A stretch of 64,000 nt of DNA from Egibacteraceae bacterium. Its GTDB lineage: Bacteria; Actinomycetota; Nitriliruptoria; Euzebyales; Egibacteraceae. Below, one piece after another: positions 3,734 through 58,637 of this stretch (its first letter is position 1; each line of letters opens with the position of its first letter). The DNA is taken from NCBI GenBank assembly GCA_030446745.1, contig JAUJMS010000006.1, positions 4,498-68,497 of the forward strand, read 5' to 3'. The position numbers were made by a program, and so were the translations under genes. The notes beneath the pieces are model-generated. The model saw only the letters and a program-made list of their open reading frames with translations, searched no databases and was not told the origin of the DNA.

Positions 3734-4324
3734 GTGGCCGGGATGCGGGGCGTCGTGGAAGAGCCCGCGGGGCTGCGCTACGAACCCGAGTTCGTCAGCG
3801 TCGAGGAGGAGACGACCGTGCTCACGGCCCTCGACGAAATCGGCTTCGTCCAGGTCCGGATGCGCGGACAGGTGGCGCGGCGCACGGTGCGCCACTTCGG
3901 CTACGACTACGGCTACGAGTCGTGGCAGTTGACGCCGACCGACCCGTTGCCCGCGTCACTGGGCTGGCTGCGCGACCGCTGCGCCGCCTTCGCGGCGGTC
4001 ACGCCCGACGAGCTCGCGCAGATCCTCGTCACCCGCTACCCGCCGGGGGCGACGATCGGCTGGCACCGCGACGCGCCGATGTTCGGCCCGGACGTCGTCG
4101 GCGTCTCGCTCGGCGCGGACTGCCGCATGCGCTTCCAGCGCAACGTCGGCGGGCAGCGCCGCGTCTACGAGCTGCGGCTGGCGCCCCGGTCGGCGTACGT
4201 GCTCAGCGGGGCGGCGCGCTCGGCGTGGCAGCACAGCATCCCGCCGGTATCGCACCTGCGCTACTCGATCACCTTCCGCACCCTGCGCGACCCGGCAGGC
4301 TGGGCTGCCACCGGCGCGACGTGA
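3734..4324 (+). CDS. alkB: Fe(II)/2-oxoglutarate-dependent dioxygenase, AlkB family
   Basis: GYDYGYES..., ILVTRYPPGATIGWHRDAPMFG (HxD), WQHSIP (distal His), RYSITFR (2OG-binding Arg). The start could instead be the ATG at 3743. Confidence 0.75.
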   Translation: MAGMRGVVEEPAGLRYEPEFVSVEEETTVLTALDEIGFVQVRMRGQVARRTVRHFGYDYGYESWQLTPTDPLPASLGWLRDRCAAFAAVTPDELAQILVTRYPPGATIGWHRDAPMFGPDVVGVSLGADCRMRFQRNVGGQRRVYELRLAPRSAYVLSGAARSAWQHSIPPVSHLRYSITFRTLRDPAGWAATGAT

Positions 4325-54140: not shown

Positions 54141-55034
54141 TCATTCGTCCTGGAGCGACGTGCCCGCACCCCGCGCGACGACCGCGAGGAGACGTTCGAG
54201 GTCGTGCGCGCCGGCGTAGTCGATCACCACCCGACCACGGCGCGGCGACCCGGTGATCCGCACCCGAGTGGCGAGCGCGTCGCTGAGGCGACGTTCCAGG
54301 TCGCCGTACGGCGACGCCGCCCGAGCCTTCGCGGCGGCGGCGAGATCGGGCATGACACCATCGTCGGTTGCGGGTTCCGTGAGGCGGCGCACGAGTTCTT
54401 CGGCCGCGCGCACGGACAGGCCCTCGCCGACGACACGTTGCGCCACCCGGCGTTGGGTCCCGGCGTCGGGCAGCGCGAGGAGTGCCCGCGCGTGGCCGGC
54501 ACTCAATGCGCCGGTGGCGACGTGGTGCTGCAGCTCTGGTGGCAGGGTGAGCAGCCGCAGGGTGTTGGACACCGCGGACCGGGACTTGCCGAGCTTGCTC
54601 GCCAGCGCCTCGTGCGTGATGCCGAAGTCGTCACGCAGCTGCTGGTACGCCGCCGCCTCCTCGAGGGGATTGAGGTCGGCGCGGTGGACGTTCTCTACCA
54701 GTGCTTCCGTGAGCAGGTCGGCGTCCTCGGTGTGGCGCACGACGGCCGGGATCTCGGCGAGACCGGCGAGCCGTGCGGCGCGGAAGCGACGCTCCCCGGC
54801 CACGATCTCGAATCGCTCTCCGGCGACGGGGCGCACGACGATGGGCTGCAACACGCCGACCTCACGCAGCGAGTGGGCCAACTCCTCCAGGGCCGCGTCG
54901 TCGAAGACGCCCCGCGGCTGTCTGGGATTCGGCTGGATGGCGGTGAGTGGCAGGGACAGGAGTCCGCTGCGGCCGGGTTCCGCCGTGGGGATGAGCGCCC
55001 CGAGGCCTCGTCCCAGCCCGCTTGGTCGGCTCAC
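54141..55034 (-). CDS. parB: chromosome partitioning protein ParB
   Basis: LPLTAIQPNPRQPRGVFD, LQPIVVRP, IVAGERRFRAARLAG, HTH SKLGKSRSAVSNTLRLL. Confidence 0.9.
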   Translation of the reverse strand: MSRPSGLGRGLGALIPTAEPGRSGLLSLPLTAIQPNPRQPRGVFDDAALEELAHSLREVGVLQPIVVRPVAGERFEIVAGERRFRAARLAGLAEIPAVVRHTEDADLLTEALVENVHRADLNPLEEAAAYQQLRDDFGITHEALASKLGKSRSAVSNTLRLLTLPPELQHHVATGALSAGHARALLALPDAGTQRRVAQRVVGEGLSVRAAEELVRRLTEPATDDGVMPDLAAAAKARAASPYGDLERRLSDALATRVRITGSPRRGRVVIDYAGAHDLERLLAVVARGAGTSLQDE

Positions 55035-57454
55035 CGTTGTGCCCCTTCGTCGCTGTTGTGCAACCGCTCGAGCACCTCCGCGGCGAGGCGCCGGTACGCC
55101 CGCGCGCCGCGCGACGAGGGGTCGAAGACGGTGATCGGCTGGCCATAACTCGGCGCTTCAGCCAGCCGGACGGAACGCGGGATGCGCGTGGTGAAGACGC
55201 GCTCGCCGAAGTGGGCGATGACCTCGTCGACGACCTGCTGACCCAATCGCGTCCGGGCGTCGAGCATCGTGAGCACGAACCCGGTGATCTCCAGCGCCGC
55301 GTTGAGGTTGTCCTTGATGAGCTCGGCGTTGCGCCGCAGTGCCCCGAGTCCCTCCAGGGCGTAGTACTCGCACTGGATCGGCACGACGACGCCGTCGGCG
55401 GCTGAGAGGGCGTTGACGGTCAACAGGCCGAGGCTCGGCGGGCAGTCGATGAGCACGACGTCGAAGTCGCTACGCACATGCTCCAGCGAGCGACGAAGCC
55501 GTTGTTCCCGGCTGAACGCCGTCACCAGCTCGATCTCGGCGCCGGCAAGGTCAATGGTCGCCGGCAACACGAACAGATTCCGCACACTCGTCGGCTCGAC
55601 GGCGTCAACGATGTCGGCGTTGGACACGAGCACGTCGTAGACGGTCGGCCGGCCGCTCGCGACCCGGACGCCAACGCCTGAGGTCGCGTTGCCTTGTGGA
55701 TCGAGGTCGACGAGCAGCACGCGGGCACCGAGGTCGGCGAGGGCCGCGGCCAGGCTCACCGCGGTCGTCGTCTTCCCGACCCCACCCTTCTGGTTGGCGA
55801 CGGTGAGCACCCGTGCCCGCTCGAACCGTGGCGCCGACACCGGCGTGGAGGCGGTGTCAAGCACAGCGCGGACGTCCTCGACCGCCGGGTCCAGGCGCGA
55901 TGGTTCCACGTGAAACAATGGCCCGGAGGCCACGGGGGCGGTCGCGAGATCCGGGGCGGCCGGGGCGTCAGCGTTGCGCACCGCTCCGGGCGCCGGGCGG
56001 TCGGCGGCGACCGGTACCTCAGCGCCCGCCGCGGGCGGCGACGCGCCGGCGGCCTCACCGCCGCCGGGAGCCGCGGCAGCACCGTGCTCCACGGTCGCGT
56101 CGTGCGATCCCCCCTCGTCCGCTCCGCCAGCGCCCTGTGTGGGTACGTCTCCAGGCCACTCACCGCGGACCGGGTGAGCGCCGGCGGTTTGGTCCGCATC
56201 CGCCGAGGCGTCCGGCGCGCCGCGCGGCGCCGAAACGCCAGATGGGGCCGCGGCGCCGCCGTCCTCGCCGAGGTGCATGACCGAGCCAGCGGACGCCTTG
56301 GCGGTCCGATCGCTACCCACCGCCGAAACGCCAGGCGTGGCCGCGGCCCCGCCGTGGCCGCCGACGTCCACGACCGAGCGGACGGACGCCCGGGCGGCCT
56401 CCTCCCTGTCGGCCGCCCCCACGGCGGCGGATGGCTCGGGTTCAGCGCCTGGGCCCATGTCAGCCGGAGCCTCCGTCGTCGGCATCTGCGACCCGGCGTG
56501 CGGACCGCGCTCGCGGTCAACGGCCGCCACCACGGGAGTCTCCGGCACGTGAGGCCGGGCCGGCACGGCGCCTCCGGCGCTCGCATGGACTGCGGTGCCG
56601 TCAGCATCGTCGGCGGGGGTGGCGTCCCGGCGCCTTTCGAACTCGGGCGCGGAGTCGTGAATCTCTCGTTTGGCCGGAACATCCAACGCGGTGTCGACCT
56701 CGCGTACGCCGCGCACCGCCGACGAGTCACCGCCGGTCGGCGGGTCGGGCATGTCGCGCGCGGCCGGAACGTCCGACCATCCGACAGCGGGACGGTCACG
56801 GTCTGGCGCCGACGAGCCCGAAGGCGACTTCAGGCTCGCGTTGCCGACATCGCCCTCGGCCGCCGGGTCCGGCACCTCCCGTACGGCCGGAACATCGGAC
56901 CGGGCGGCCGCGCCGGGTTCACCCAGCACCGGCGCCGACAGTCTTTGCGGCGCTGGCGCGCCCCAGTCGCCGCCATCAGCCTCCGCCCCTGGCTCGGGCA
57001 GCTCCCGCGCGGCCGGAACATCGAAGCCGGCGTGGACGCCTTGCTCATGCGCCGGCGCTGACGCGCCGGCCGACGCTTCCTCCCCGCCGTCGCCACCGCC
57101 CTTTGCCGCCGAATCGGACACCTCCCGCGCGGCCGGAACGTCGAACCGAACGGCGGCGCCGAGGTCCATGTCCCCGGCTGCCGCTCGGTGGCCGCCGCGG
57201 ACCGTTCCCTGGGGGTCGCCCGCGCCGGCCGCCAGTCGTCTCCCCGAGTCGCCATCGGCTCTCGGAACGTCCGACGTCGCCGCGACACCGTCGGCAGGGC
57301 GGGCTGGCGGCGCGGCGCCCGGCCGGGCCTCCGCGCCACGAACGATGCTGCCCCGGTTCGCGGGCGGCGCCGCGCCCGTGGGGCCCGGTTCGCCGTGCGC
57401 CTCGTCGCCAACGCCGGTACCGGCCCAGTACCGATACCAGCGTTGAGGGGTCAT
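55031..57454 (-). CDS. parA: ParA/Soj partitioning ATPase with a ~510-aa low-complexity N-terminal extension
   Basis: Core VLTVANQKGGVGKTTT, LLVDLDPQGN, VLIDCPPSLG. The frame stays open, with GC-rich third positions, up to ATG 57454, which overlaps the rsmG stop as ATGA. A shorter product from an internal start cannot be excluded. Confidence 0.75.
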   Translation of the reverse strand: MTPQRWYRYWAGTGVGDEAHGEPGPTGAAPPANRGSIVRGAEARPGAAPPARPADGVAATSDVPRADGDSGRRLAAGAGDPQGTVRGGHRAAAGDMDLGAAVRFDVPAAREVSDSAAKGGGDGGEEASAGASAPAHEQGVHAGFDVPAARELPEPGAEADGGDWGAPAPQRLSAPVLGEPGAAARSDVPAVREVPDPAAEGDVGNASLKSPSGSSAPDRDRPAVGWSDVPAARDMPDPPTGGDSSAVRGVREVDTALDVPAKREIHDSAPEFERRRDATPADDADGTAVHASAGGAVPARPHVPETPVVAAVDRERGPHAGSQMPTTEAPADMGPGAEPEPSAAVGAADREEAARASVRSVVDVGGHGGAAATPGVSAVGSDRTAKASAGSVMHLGEDGGAAAPSGVSAPRGAPDASADADQTAGAHPVRGEWPGDVPTQGAGGADEGGSHDATVEHGAAAAPGGGEAAGASPPAAGAEVPVAADRPAPGAVRNADAPAAPDLATAPVASGPLFHVEPSRLDPAVEDVRAVLDTASTPVSAPRFERARVLTVANQKGGVGKTTTAVSLAAALADLGARVLLVDLDPQGNATSGVGVRVASGRPTVYDVLVSNADIVDAVEPTSVRNLFVLPATIDLAGAEIELVTAFSREQRLRRSLEHVRSDFDVVLIDCPPSLGLLTVNALSAADGVVVPIQCEYYALEGLGALRRNAELIKDNLNAALEITGFVLTMLDARTRLGQQVVDEVIAHFGERVFTTRIPRSVRLAEAPSYGQPITVFDPSSRGARAYRRLAAEVLERLHNSDEGAQR
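55902..55917. promoter_or_regulatory. parS centromere-like site (15/16 to TGTTCCACGTGAAACA)
   Basis: GGTTCCACGTGAAACA inside parA, encoding LFHVEP just upstream of the ATPase core. Confidence 0.8.
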
Positions 57455-58173
57455 CGAGGCGGCCTTCCAAGCGGATGGCGACGCGGCATCCCGTCGCGGC
57501 GGGGGTAGCCCGCCGGCGGGTCGCCCACCGCTCGCATGGTAACAAGCCAGGTCGGTCGCTCGACGGTGGCGACGTCGCTGCTGTGCACATCGGCGAAGCG
57601 CAACAGCGACAGCGCCTGTCGCGCCTGCGCCAACTCCTCGCGCCACGCAGGACCCTTGACGGCGGCGAGGACACCGTCGGCTCGCAGGAAGCCGCGCGCC
57701 AGTTCGGCCAAGGTCACGAGCGGTGCAACGGCTCTCGCGATGACGCCGTCAAAGCTGCCGCGCTCGGCAGGCTCGTGCGCGACCGTCTCCGCCCGTCCGT
57801 GAAGCGCGGCGACGTTGTCCAGCCCCAACGTTGCCGCGAACGCCTCGACGGCCGCGATCTTCTTGCGCGTGGCATCGAGCAACACCCACGCGACGGTCGG
57901 ATACCGCACCGCGAGCACCAGTCCGGGCAGGCCGCCGCCCGTTCCGAGGTCGAGCCACCGCGAGCCGGGCGCGGGCGACAGCGCCGCCCCGACCGCAAGC
58001 GCTTCGCGAACGTGTCGCTCGTAGACGGTGGCGCGCTCGCCGGCTGCCACGAGGTTGTGCGGCGAATCCGCGATGAGGCCTGCCAAGCGACGCAGGACCG
58101 CGTCATCGGAATGGCTGTGACCTGCGGAAATGCCCTCACTCGCCCGCTGTGGCGAGTTACGCTGCGCCGCCAT
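57451..58173 (-). CDS. rsmG: 16S rRNA (guanine527-N7)-methyltransferase
   Basis: WLDLGTGGGLPGLVLA SAM motif, VIARAVAPL. Internal ATG with a GGGGAGGGG RBS gives 240 aa. Confidence 0.9.
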   Translation of the reverse strand: MAAQRNSPQRASEGISAGHSHSDDAVLRRLAGLIADSPHNLVAAGERATVYERHVREALAVGAALSPAPGSRWLDLGTGGGLPGLVLAVRYPTVAWVLLDATRKKIAAVEAFAATLGLDNVAALHGRAETVAHEPAERGSFDGVIARAVAPLVTLAELARGFLRADGVLAAVKGPAWREELAQARQALSLLRFADVHSSDVATVERPTWLVTMRAVGDPPAGYPRRDGMPRRHPLGRPPR

Positions 58174-58621
58174 ATCGAAGTACCCCTCCCCGCGGCCGTT
58201 GTCGCGCCCGCCCGACCGCAGAACGTGGCGTCCGGCGCGTCGACGAACGCGTCCGGCGACAGCGCTCTCACCGATCAGGCGAGGCTTCGGACTCCCACCC
58301 GTCACGACCGGTCACCGTGGCGCGGCGACGAGACGTCGCCCGACAGGGTGTCCCCGCTGCGGGCAGACGACGCTCGTAGGCGGTTTGCAGCCGAAGCCAT
58401 CACCTGCGTCGGGACCACACCTGCGAGGCGCTTCGTACTCGGCGCGTTGGCTGCTCACGGCTCGGCAGCGCACGGAGCCCGCTGGTGGCAGGCTATACCA
58501 GCCTCCCGTTGGATCTTCGGGTTGCGCGTGGCGAAACGGTTCCATGACGGCGGGGATGCGACTGGGCCGGTGGGCCGCCGTCCCCCGGCACCGGTCGTCT
58601 CAGGCTAAAGCGCACGCATGT

Positions 58622-58637
58622 CGTTTCACATGAAACC
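58622..58637. promoter_or_regulatory. degenerate parS-like site (13/16)
   Basis: CGTTTCACATGAAACC, 10 nt downstream of the jag stop, at the edge of the long jag-rsmG spacer. Confidence 0.4.

What the first reader, a model, noticed from the sequence alone, without database searches (positions are those of the whole stretch)
55918..57454. ParA with a ~510-aa disordered N-terminal extension carrying six spaced DVPAAREVPDP-like motifs
ATG 57454 overlaps the rsmG stop as ATGA. From there the frame stays open, with GC-rich third positions, for ~510 codons before the Walker-A core (VLTVANQKGGVGKTT). The extension holds six copies of [FSL]DVPx[AVKD]... : SDVPRADGD, FDVPAAREVSDS, FDVPAARELPEP, SDVPAVREVPDP, SDVPAARDMPDP, LDVPAKREIHDS. 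They are spaced 30-43 codons apart. The DNA core GGCCGGAAC(A/G)TC (56672, 56762, 56885, 57011, 57131; CTCGGAAC at 57261) is far better conserved than the spacers. Actinobacterial ParA extensions that I know of are tens to ~100 residues and mediate polar (DivIVA/Scy-type) contacts; several hundred residues with a multivalent motif is unusual. Alternatively the conservation is at DNA level: the coding strand reads GA(T/C)GTTCCGGCC, which contains the GTTCC of the parS left half. That would make it an array of protein-binding sites hidden in coding sequence next to the true parS at 55902.
Basis: partly seen in the sequence, partly recalled or inferred. Interest (0 to 1): 0.72.

Follow-up and report, generated by a model that had tools for sequence, protein, structure and literature searches.

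The report
ParA with giant disordered N-terminal tail
The chromosome-partitioning ATPase ParA of this high-GC actinobacterium really is made with a roughly 545-residue floppy N-terminal tail. The tail starts with a conserved WYRYW peptide and carries six copies of a short DVPxxRE(V)P(D) peptide motif. This is an extreme, lineage-specific variant of a known protein, and its function is not known.

Summary
An 807-codon ORF (55031-57454, minus strand) starts at an ATG that overlaps the rsmG stop and runs without a stop into a canonical ParA/Soj core. It holds six in-frame DVPxxRE-type motifs.

The extension is coding. It shows strong period-3 composition. Its first 11 residues (MTPQRWYRYWA) match a cap found at the extreme N-terminus of about 70 of the 120 closest ParA homologues (Egibacteraceae/Nitriliruptorales). 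The closest relative (L081, core 92% identical) keeps one continuous ORF across 22 in-frame indel blocks, with the same cap, six motif copies and one parS.

The motif is conserved as a peptide, not as DNA. In L081 its codons differ synonymously (GTG/GTT/GTC, CCG/CCC) and the window's 12-mer GAYGTTCCGGCC does not occur there.

No Pfam domain was found in the tail, and AlphaFold2 gives pLDDT below 50 for residues 1 to about 520.

Best reading: an acidic disordered tether with a terminal anchor peptide and a multivalent array of short linear motifs. What it binds is inferred, not shown. More distant relatives have 20-245-residue linkers that carry in-frame parS sites instead. It is a new variant of a known kind, of moderate interest.

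The parts
55031..57454 (-). parA ORF, 807 codons plus stop. The ATG overlaps the rsmG stop (ATGA) and the stop overlaps the parB GTG start (GTGA).
   Evidence: This exact 807-aa product is in the NCBI-derived protein collection.
57463..57468 (-). Shine-Dalgarno-like GGAAGG, 8 nt upstream of the ATG. The same hexamer is conserved upstream of the ATG in the orthologue L081.
57422..57454 (-). N-terminal cap MTPQRWYRYWA. WYRYW is residues 6-10 (57425-57439).
   Evidence: The cap is present in about 70 of the 120 closest ParA homologues. It is invariant in alignments A2 and A3, but these contain only sequences chosen for having the cap. Window versus L081: pN/pS 0.16 at pS 0.43. It is absent from the 80 more distant ParA loci L001-L080.
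55894..57421 (-). Acidic low-complexity linker, residues 12 to about 520. Across the 512-residue extension: D+E 75 against K+R 41, and A+G+P about 50%. Predicted disordered.
   Evidence: Composition. No Pfam family at E<=1. AlphaFold2 pLDDT below 50 and no secondary structure. pN/pS against L081 is 0.67.
57239..57271 (-). Motif copy 1, DVPRADGDSGR. It is degenerate and aligns to DVPRRWTGEQP in L081.
57110..57142 (-). Motif copy 2, DVPAAREVSDS
56990..57022 (-). Motif copy 3, DVPAARELPEP. It aligns to L081 DVPAPHEVPDR.
56864..56896 (-). Motif copy 4, DVPAVREVPDP. It aligns to L081 DVPVVREVPDG: 9 of 10 residues identical, pN/pS 0.09 at pS 0.49.
56741..56773 (-). Motif copy 5, DVPAARDMPDP
56651..56683 (-). 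Motif copy 6, DVPAKREIHDS. It aligns to L081 DVPVAREVPDG.
56201..56386 (-). Two copies of a 93-nt (31-codon) in-frame tandem duplication inside the linker (SV[VM].[VL]G..GGAAA..GVSA). Most of this stretch has no counterpart in L081.
55902..55917 (.). parS (minus strand TGTTTCACGTGGAACC), embedded in frame and read as FHVE.
   Evidence: L081 has the equivalent site at 1801. Homologues carry 1-6 such FHV[EK] sites in the linker.
55034..55813 (-). ParA/Soj ATPase core, residues 548-807. The deviant Walker A KGGVGKT is at 55769-55789.
   Evidence: Pfam AAA_31 E=2.4e-61 and CbiA. PDB 8RAY E=8.5e-80 and T. thermophilus Soj 1WCV/2BEK. AlphaFold2 pLDDT is mostly above 80.
54141..55034 (-). parB (ParB_N, HTH_ParB, ParB_C), immediately downstream
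57451..58305 (-). rsmG (GidB), immediately upstream in the same operon orientation

Best explanation
What it is (shown). The window encodes a chromosomal ParA/Soj ATPase whose translation starts at ATG 57454, coupled to the end of rsmG. The protein has four parts. The first is an 11-residue N-terminal cap, MTPQRWYRYWA, conserved across the Egibacteraceae/Nitriliruptorales-like clade. The second is an acidic, Ala/Gly/Pro-rich, intrinsically disordered linker of about 510 residues. The third is six peptide motifs inside that linker, consensus [x]-D-V-P-x-x-[R/H/P]-E-[V/L/I/M]-[P]-[D/E], spaced 30-43 residues apart. The fourth is one in-frame parS followed by the normal 260-residue ATPase core. 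The motifs are conserved at the peptide level, as islands in a fast-evolving linker.

How it works (inferred). The tail acts as a long flexible tether. The Trp/Tyr/Arg-rich cap is the anchoring or partner-binding end, binding a scaffold or the membrane interface. The six repeated motifs are multivalent, low-affinity docking sites for a partner protein that positions or regulates ParA. This would be analogous to the way mycobacterial ParA uses its short N-terminus for DivIVA.

In this lineage the linker grew by in-frame duplication. In relatives, the same linker is short and mainly hosts parS sites.
For: Coding and start site:
- There are no stops in the 512 codons (P about 0.002).
- Period-3 composition is strong: G is 0.61/0.24/0.38 at codon positions 1/2/3.
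- All five inter-motif spacings and the 93-nt tandem repeat are multiples of 3.
- Among repeat copies, pN/pS is below 1 only in the ParA frame (0.69) and in its wobble-sharing antisense shadow (0.56, which contains a stop). It is 1.2-2.0 in the other four frames.
- The ATGA overlap and the GGAAGG are present.
- The cap is conserved in about 70 of 120 homologues at the extreme N-terminus. In L202 the cap also sits directly after the rsmG stop.

Orthologue L081 (ParA core 92% identical):
- It has a continuous 682-codon ORF from an ATG one nucleotide after the rsmG stop, with the same cap, six motif copies and one parS.
- There are 22 gap blocks in the linker, and both ORFs stay open.
- pN/pS is 0.16 for the cap, 0.10 for the core and 0.67 for the linker, and 0.09-0.47 for the four properly paired motif copies, at pS 0.4-0.9.

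Peptide-level rather than DNA-level conservation: the motif codons differ synonymously between orthologues, and L081 has no match within one mismatch to the 12-mer.

Disorder: no Pfam family at E<=1; AlphaFold2 pLDDT below 50 and no secondary structure for residues 1 to about 520; composition as.

Precedent for a ParA N-terminus binding a polar scaffold: M. smegmatis ParA and DivIVA (PMC9298525).
Against: - There is no direct evidence of translation, such as proteomics or Ribo-seq.
- The motif array has been seen in only two genomes. Homologues with at most 84% core identity have the cap but not the DVP motifs.
- No partner is identified. AlphaFold2 monomer models dock neither the cap nor the motifs onto the core, in the 807-aa protein or in a short-linker homologue.
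- Codon bias in the tail is weak. The RSCU score is 0.16 against 0.53 in the core, similar to rsmG at 0.21.
- The low AlphaFold2 confidence partly reflects an alignment that is empty over the linker.
- The repeat units clearly arise by recent duplication. The L081 copies at 1188 and 1386 differ by only one residue in the 15 residues shown. Part of the similarity between copies is therefore ancestry, not selection.
- All six window copies use GTT for Val, a codon that makes up 2% of Val codons in confident genes. This is a mild anomaly that peptide-level selection alone does not explain.
Confidence: 0.7

Rival explanations
1. Neutral low-complexity expansion. The cap and the core are functional, but the 500-residue linker is only an expanded spacer. 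The DVP units are young duplicated repeat units without a specific binding function, and only length, charge and flexibility matter.
For: - Linker length ranges from about 20 to 245 residues among homologues and reaches 425-547 in L081 and the window.
- In-frame duplications are ongoing: the 93-nt tandem repeat in the window and near-identical copies at 1188 and 1386 in L081.
- Overall linker pN/pS is 0.67, and the value between repeat copies is only 0.69.
- The motif array is confined to two genomes.
- (D/E)VP repeats are a common low-complexity theme in unrelated ORFs.
Against: - Between orthologues at pS 0.4-0.9, the motif cores stay aligned and conserved (9 of 10 residues in the best pair) while the spacers are scrambled by indels.
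- Both genomes retain six copies.
- Substitutions within the motif are conservative (V/L/I/M, D/E, R codons CGG/CGC/CGA/CGT), as shown.
Confidence: 0.25
2. Cis-acting autoregulation. The acidic tail, or its aliphatic motifs with a central Arg, folds back on the ParA dimer. It would act either as a DNA mimic competing with nucleoid binding or as a pseudo-ParB peptide occupying the ParB-binding pocket, and so tune ATPase or DNA-binding cycles.
For: - The extension has net charge of about -34.
[quoted passage not shown] The DVPAAREVP motif has aliphatic residues around a conserved Arg.
Against: - The motif does not resemble the window's own ParB N-terminus (GLGRGLGALIP).
- Arg is replaced by His or Pro in two L081 copies.
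- AlphaFold2 monomer models show no docking. Dimers could not be modelled.
Confidence: 0.12
3. DNA-level array. The conserved GAYGTTCCGGCC cores are binding sites hidden in coding sequence, either parS-like half-sites for ParB or sites for another protein.
For: - Five exact 12-mers lie within 470 nt and nowhere else in the 64 kb.
- They contain GTTCC, as the parS left half does.
- All six copies use the rare Val codon GTT (2% of Val codons in confident genes), and 3 of 6 L081 copies do too.
- In relatives, the repeated element in this same linker is a DNA element, parS, read as FHVE or VPRET.
Against: - The orthologue does not conserve the DNA. No L081 site is within one mismatch of the 12-mer, and Val is GTG, GTT or GTC.
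- A scan for the 16-bp parS with up to 3 mismatches finds only 55902 and 58622, and none of the motif positions.
- The right half of the motif (CGGGAG) does not mirror the left half.
- Half of the conserved-residue codons do vary synonymously between the window's own copies (GAY, CGG/CGC/CGA, CCC/CCG, GAT/GAC).
- Retention of GTT is compatible with a single founder copy and a pairwise pS of about 0.4.
Confidence: 0.05
4. Mis-called start. The real ParA starts near the core (for example GTG 55909 inside the parS, giving 292 aa), and the upstream 1.5 kb is non-coding or a different gene. A softer version is that both a long and a short isoform are made.
For: - NCBI-type annotation of the two relatives checked calls only 272 aa (L081, L202).
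- High-GC DNA gives long chance ORFs, and several overlapping ORFs of 250-725 aa exist here.
- Solved chromosomal ParA structures are 255-276 aa.
Against: - The WYRYW cap at the far 5' end is conserved in about 70 homologues, always in frame with the core.
- The orthologue keeps the frame through 22 indel blocks.
- There is period-3 composition and a frame-specific pN/pS.
- The other frames translate to Arg-rich sequence or contain stops.
- No promoter-like or terminator-like site is found inside, although that scan is weak for this phylum.
- A short isoform made in addition to the long one is not excluded.
Confidence: 0.05

Closest known systems
Chromosomal ParA/Soj (type Ib deviant Walker A ATPase; T. 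thermophilus Soj 1WCV/2BEK, PDB 8RAY, H. pylori Soj 6IUB)
   Same: The core (residues 548-807) matches at E=8.5e-80 to 1e-51 and has Walker A KGGVGKT. It lies in the order rsmG-parA-parB with a parS nearby.
   Different: The solved proteins are 255-276 residues. This one is 807, with about 547 residues in front of the first core strand.
Actinomycetota ParA with a short N-terminal extension that contacts DivIVA/Wag31 (M. smegmatis; PMC9298525)
   Same: Both have an extra N-terminal segment on a chromosomal ParA in the same phylum. In M. smegmatis the extreme N-terminus (residue 3) matters for partner binding. Here the extreme N-terminus (WYRYW) is the best-conserved part.
   Different: The characterised extension is 20-25 residues (PMC9298525). 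This one is more than 20 times longer, has a different cap sequence and adds a repeated internal motif. No DivIVA interaction has been tested.
ParA homologues of Egibacteraceae/Nitriliruptorales MAGs (P0004-P0122; e.g. P0042 421 aa, P0077 478 aa, P0075 501 aa)
   Same: The core is 65-84% identical. Most have the same WYRYW cap, and the linker is acidic, low-complexity and contains in-frame parS (FHVE).
   Different: Their linkers are about 20-245 residues and carry 1-6 parS sites but no DVPxxRE array. The window has one parS and six DVP motifs.
Orthologue in GCA_030773835.1 (L081), annotated there as a 272-aa ParA
   Same: It has the same architecture: cap, six DVP-type motifs, one parS, and a core that is 92% identical.
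   Different: Its tail is about 425 residues rather than 547. The spacers cannot be aligned, it lacks the 93-nt duplication, and the extension is not annotated in the public record.
Type Ia plasmid ParA (P1 ParA, F SopA) with an N-terminal regulatory domain
   Same: It is also a ParA with a substantial N-terminal addition.
   Different: From general knowledge, that addition is a folded DNA-binding (HTH) domain of about 100 residues. Here no domain is detected and no structure is predicted. The SopA model scores 74 bits against a cut-off of 725.

Membership tests
Chromosomal ParA/Soj ATPase | Deviant Walker A motif xKGGxxK[ST] | tested here: met
   NQKGGVGKTT at residues 554-563
Chromosomal ParA/Soj ATPase | Family-level profile match above the curated threshold | tested here: met
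   Pfam AAA_31 scores 207 bits (cut-off 27) and CbiA 94 bits (cut-off 25.4). The NCBIfam ParA_partition equivalog scores 119.8 bits, below its cut-off of 180. That model is the plasmid-type equivalog.
Chromosomal ParA/Soj ATPase | Operon partner ParB and a parS centromere nearby, in an origin-proximal context | tested here: met
   parB, with ParB_N, HTH_ParB and ParB_C domains, overlaps the parA stop. A parS lies at 55902-55917. yidC, jag and rsmG lie upstream. The relative L202 shows rpmH-rnpA-yidD-yidC-jag-rsmG-parA-parB.
Chromosomal ParA/Soj ATPase | ATP-dependent dimerisation, non-specific DNA binding and ParB-stimulated ATPase activity | not testable with these tools
   This needs biochemistry.
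Type Ia plasmid ParA (N-terminal HTH regulatory domain) | A folded N-terminal DNA-binding domain | tested here: not met
   No Pfam family at E<=1 in residues 1-535. AlphaFold2 predicts no secondary structure before residue 523.
Mycobacterial-type ParA N-terminal DivIVA-binding extension | A short (20-25 aa) N-terminal extension whose first residues are needed for DivIVA binding | not tested
   The length differs greatly (547 against 20-25; PMC9298525). No sequence comparison with M. smegmatis ParA was made, and binding cannot be tested here.
Short linear motif (SLiM) array in an intrinsically disordered region | Short conserved islands in a disordered region, kept in orthologues while the flanks diverge | tested here: met
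   Alignment A1. For the four paired motif copies pN/pS is 0.09-0.47, against 0.67 for the linker as a whole. This rests on one orthologue only.
Short linear motif (SLiM) array in an intrinsically disordered region | A defined binding partner or domain | not testable with these tools
   No partner is identified, and the AlphaFold2 monomer models are uninformative on this.
parS centromere site (applied to the DVP-motif DNA) | A 16-bp palindrome close to TGTTTCACGTGAAACA | tested here: not met
   A scan allowing up to 3 mismatches finds only 55902 and 58622. The motif DNA GTTCCGGCCGCGCGGGAG lacks the mirrored right half, as the sequence shows directly.

The most novel reading that the evidence does not exclude
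In this clade the ParA linker may be a dual-use stretch, in which centromere DNA (parS arrays read as FHVE or VPRET) and peptide sequence co-evolve. Under this reading the DVPxxRE repeats of the window and L081 descend from parS copies read in the V-P-R-E-T frame (GTT CCA CGT GAA AC). This would explain the otherwise rare GTT codon. The repeats would then either have been co-opted as a multivalent peptide motif or still be bound at the DNA level by some protein.
Probability: 0.07. Interest if true: 0.8.

Novelty: new variant of a known kind. Interest (0 to 1): 0.5.

Why it matters
Characterised chromosomal ParA proteins are about 255-350 residues. Their N-terminal additions, where studied, are 20-25 residues and mediate contact with a polar scaffold (PMC9298525).

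Here a whole clade has a conserved, undescribed N-terminal WYRYW cap. No paper in the searchable library contains that string. The cap is joined to the ATPase by a linker of very variable length.

In the window's lineage the linker has grown to about 500 residues and gained six conserved peptide motifs. If the cap and motifs are docking sites, they define a new way of positioning or regulating ParA. They also give concrete peptides to use as bait.

There is a practical point as well. Public annotation of the two relatives checked cuts off this N-terminus (272 aa called in each; L081's real ORF is 682 aa). The feature is therefore missing from their deposited protein sequences.

Tried and rejected
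1. Searches for homologues of the extension found nothing. These were search for homologous proteins with the window's tail and with L081's tail, a full phmmer scan of 1.84 billion representatives, and pattern scans of genome contigs and metagenome contigs. These negatives say little, because phmmer at that database size cannot detect even the true orthologous tail of L081, and L081's tail is not annotated as protein.

2. A two-copy degenerate DNA pattern for the motif was specific in the window and in the loci already held. In metagenome contigs it was swamped by unrelated (D/E)VP tripeptide tandem repeats, and none of the hits lay next to a ParA.

3. The first genome-contig scan with the ParA core returned mostly Acidimicrobiia and Streptomyces loci at 47-69% identity. 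These suggested the wrong class at first. The protein search then showed the true neighbours to be Egibacteraceae/Nitriliruptorales-like.

4. GC3 frame plots and RSCU scoring could not separate the ParA frame from antisense shadow frames in this Ala/Gly/Asp-rich sequence. I relied instead on period-3 G content, frame-specific pN/pS and comparative data.

5. Exact look-ups of ParA and ParB to name the source genome failed. Only the existence of the 807-aa product in the NCBI-derived set was confirmed.

6. AlphaFold2 was run on the full protein and on a short-linker homologue to see whether the cap docks on the core. Confidence for the cap was low in both, so there is no docking evidence.

7. 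The promoter and terminator scan found nothing in 54.9-58.7 kb. This is uninformative for this phylum.

8. The idea that the motif is a parS with a 6-nt central insertion was checked by eye. Only about 8 of 14 positions match, and the motif is better described as two [DE]VP half-units. It is kept only as a low-probability evolutionary speculation.
Full report
**Observation**

The minus strand of 54.1-60.2 kb carries yidC, jag, rsmG (57451-58305), a long ORF ending in a ParA core (55031-57646 from the first GTG), and parB (54141-55034).

ATG 57454 overlaps the rsmG stop as ATGA and is preceded by GGAAGG at the usual distance. The parA stop overlaps the parB GTG as GTGA.

From the ATG the protein is 807 residues. 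Pfam places the ATPase core at 548-800.

Their spacing is 43, 40, 42, 41 and 30 codons.

The 12-mer GAYGTTCCGGCC occurs five times within 470 nt and nowhere else in the 64 kb window. DVP occurs 7 times where 0.44 is expected. A parS with two mismatches lies at 55902-55917. A separate 93-nt in-frame tandem duplication lies at 56201-56386.

**Is the extension coding?**

An open frame alone is weak evidence at 77% GC. Several overlapping ORFs of 250-725 codons exist here, and GC3 and codon-usage scores do not single out the ParA frame. Four other lines of evidence do.

1. The ParA frame has no stop in 512 codons, while the others have 1-14. Shuffles give P about 0.002.
2. Period-3 composition is strong: G is 0.61, 0.24 and 0.38 at codon positions 1, 2 and 3. 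The ParA frame translates to an acidic Ala/Gly/Pro-rich sequence, whereas the other frames either contain stops or read as Arg-rich sequence.
3. All five inter-motif distances and the 93-nt tandem unit are multiples of three.
4. Among repeat copies, pN/pS is below 1 only in the ParA frame (0.69) and in its wobble-sharing antisense shadow (0.56), which contains a stop. It is 1.2-2.0 in the other four frames.

The exact 807-residue product is also present in the NCBI-derived protein collection.

**Relatives**

Searching with the tail alone found nothing. This is uninformative, because phmmer at that database size cannot detect even the true orthologous tail.

Searching with the core was decisive. 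The closest homologues are ParA proteins of MAGs labelled Egibacteraceae, Nitriliruptorales or Actinomycetota, at 65-92% identity and 252-501 residues as called.

About 70 of these 120 begin with the peptide WYRYW within their first 5-25 residues, for example MSQQPWYRYWA and MTRPWYRYWAQ. The window begins MTPQRWYRYWA, and the five residues are invariant in alignments of 64-65 sequences chosen for carrying the cap.

After the cap comes an acidic linker of variable length that contains 1-6 in-frame FHV[EK] tetrapeptides. Each of these is a parS site inside the coding sequence.

The cap is absent from 80 more distant ParA loci from Acidimicrobiia, Streptomyces and others. No paper in the searchable library contains the string.

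A conserved peptide at the far 5' end, always in frame with the core across linkers of about 20-550 residues, is strong evidence that translation starts at ATG 57454.

**The orthologue L081**

The best hit (P0003, 92% identical in the core) is annotated as 272 residues. Its contig (L081, GCA_030773835.1) has 1.2 kb between rsmG and the called start.

That interval is one continuous ORF in the ParA frame. It starts at an ATG one nucleotide after the rsmG stop, behind the same GGAAGG. It encodes MTAPKRWYRYWA, six motif copies (DVPRRW, DVPAPHEVPDR, DVPVVREVPDG, DVPVAREVPDG, DVPGPPEVPEE, GVPGVREVLEE), one parS read as FHVEH, and the core.

The protein alignment has 22 gap blocks in the linker, yet both ORFs stay open.

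Window against L081, pN/pS is 0.16 for the cap, 0.10 for the core and 0.67 for the linker. It is 0.09-0.47 for the four motif copies that pair properly, at pS 0.4-0.9.

A second relative (L202) shows the same pattern of annotation. Only 272 residues are called, while the WYRYW cap sits right after the rsmG stop.

**Peptide or DNA?**

They do.

The L081 copies read GAC GTG CCG GCG, GAC GTT CCG GTG (twice), GAC GTT CCG GGG, GGC GTC CCG GGC and GAT GTG CCC CGG. No site in L081 lies within one mismatch of the window's 12-mer.

Within the window, half of the conserved-residue codons vary synonymously between copies: GAY, CGG/CGC/CGA, CCC/CCG and GAT/GAC. The hydrophobic position varies conservatively (V/L/M/I).

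The motif DNA is not a parS. A scan allowing three mismatches finds only 55902 and 58622.

One mild anomaly remains. All six window copies and three of six L081 copies use GTT, which makes up 2% of Val codons in confident genes (11 of 562). With a pairwise pS of about 0.4 between copies, and clear evidence of recent duplication, descent from one founder copy is a sufficient explanation.

A few homologues read parS as VPRET (GTT CCA CGT GAA AC; P0098, P0103, P0119). Descent of the DVPxxRE unit from a parS copy therefore cannot be excluded. I rate it as unlikely, because the motif looks more like two [DE]VP half-units.

**Structure**

Residues 1-535 match no Pfam family at E<=1.

AlphaFold2, given a 65-sequence alignment, predicts the core confidently. 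For residues 1 to about 520 it gives pLDDT below 50 and no secondary structure. The alignment is essentially empty over the linker, so this is supportive rather than conclusive.

Composition points the same way. A+G+P is 44-53%, very few residues are aromatic outside the cap, and D+E is 75 against K+R 41.

Neither this model nor a model of a 293-residue homologue docks the cap on the monomeric core.

**Mechanism**

Shown:
- It is a ParA/Soj ATPase in a standard rsmG-parA-parB-parS context.
- It has a conserved N-terminal cap.
- It has a fast-evolving acidic linker that grows by in-frame duplication.
- It has six motif islands conserved at the peptide level in the one available orthologue.

Inferred: the tail is a flexible tether. 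Its Trp/Tyr/Arg-rich end binds something in trans, either a scaffold or the membrane interface. Its repeated motifs provide multivalent weak docking for a partner that positions or regulates ParA.

The nearest experimental precedent is the 20-25-residue N-terminus of M. smegmatis ParA, which is needed for DivIVA binding (PMC9298525).

An autoregulatory reading is a live alternative. In it the acidic tail acts as a DNA mimic, or the aliphatic motif with a central Arg acts as a pseudo-ParB peptide (compare PMC12462528). A third alternative is that the DVP units are young repeats with no specific function.

**Comparison with known systems, and novelty**

The core is an ordinary chromosomal ParA. 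The closest solved structures are 8RAY and T. thermophilus Soj, all of 255-276 residues.

It is not a type Ia plasmid ParA, because the tail has no folded domain.

The new elements are:
- the clade-wide WYRYW cap;
- the extreme linker length (about 547 residues here and 425 in L081, against about 20-245 in the other homologues);
- the DVPxxRE(V)P(D) array, so far seen in two genomes.

This is a new variant of a known kind. It is interesting to people who study ParABS systems because it gives defined peptides to test. However, it is lineage-restricted, lies in little-studied organisms and has no demonstrated function. I score interest at 0.5.

Noticed in passing
P0004-P0122; window 55902-55917; L081 1801-1816: In the closest ParA homologues (Egibacteraceae/Nitriliruptorales MAGs), the linker between the cap and the ATPase core carries 1-6 in-frame FHV[EK] tetrapeptides. 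Each is a parS site, so the centromere array lies inside the parA coding sequence. A few homologues read the same palindrome as VPRET instead.
   Followed up: partly
window 57425-57439; L081 666-680; L202 about 3761-3775: A WYRYW peptide at the extreme N-terminus of ParA is conserved in about 70 of the 120 closest homologues. It is absent from 80 more distant actinobacterial and Firmicutes ParA loci, and the string is not found in the searchable literature.
   Followed up: partly
L081 648-1874; L202 about 3737-4000: The public annotation of both relatives examined truncates ParA to 272 residues. The conserved cap and linker are left as apparent intergenic DNA, so the extension is missing from their deposited protein sequences.
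   Followed up: yes
window 58622-58637: A second, weaker parS-like site (CGTTTCACATGAAACC, 3 mismatches) lies in the spacer between jag and rsmG.
   Followed up: no
window 56201-56386: A 93-nt (31-codon) in-frame tandem duplication, two copies at 73-80% identity, lies in the distal half of the linker. Most of this stretch has no counterpart in the L081 alignment.
   Followed up: partly
window 55853-55888: AlphaFold2 places a single short helix (residues 523-534, VEDVRAVLDTAS, low confidence) between the parS-encoded FHVE and the first core strand. EDVRAV loosely resembles the DVPAVRE motif.
   Followed up: no
L082-L201 (e.g. L194, L106, L188): The metagenome hits to the degenerate motif pattern are long (D/E)VP tripeptide tandem repeats (PEVPDVPEVP...) in unrelated ORFs, most of them from lower-GC contigs. 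They are not linked to ParA.
   Followed up: partly
P0002: The 90%-identity cluster that holds the 807-aa ParA is represented by an unrelated 55-residue ENA fragment. This looks like a clustering artefact.
   Followed up: no
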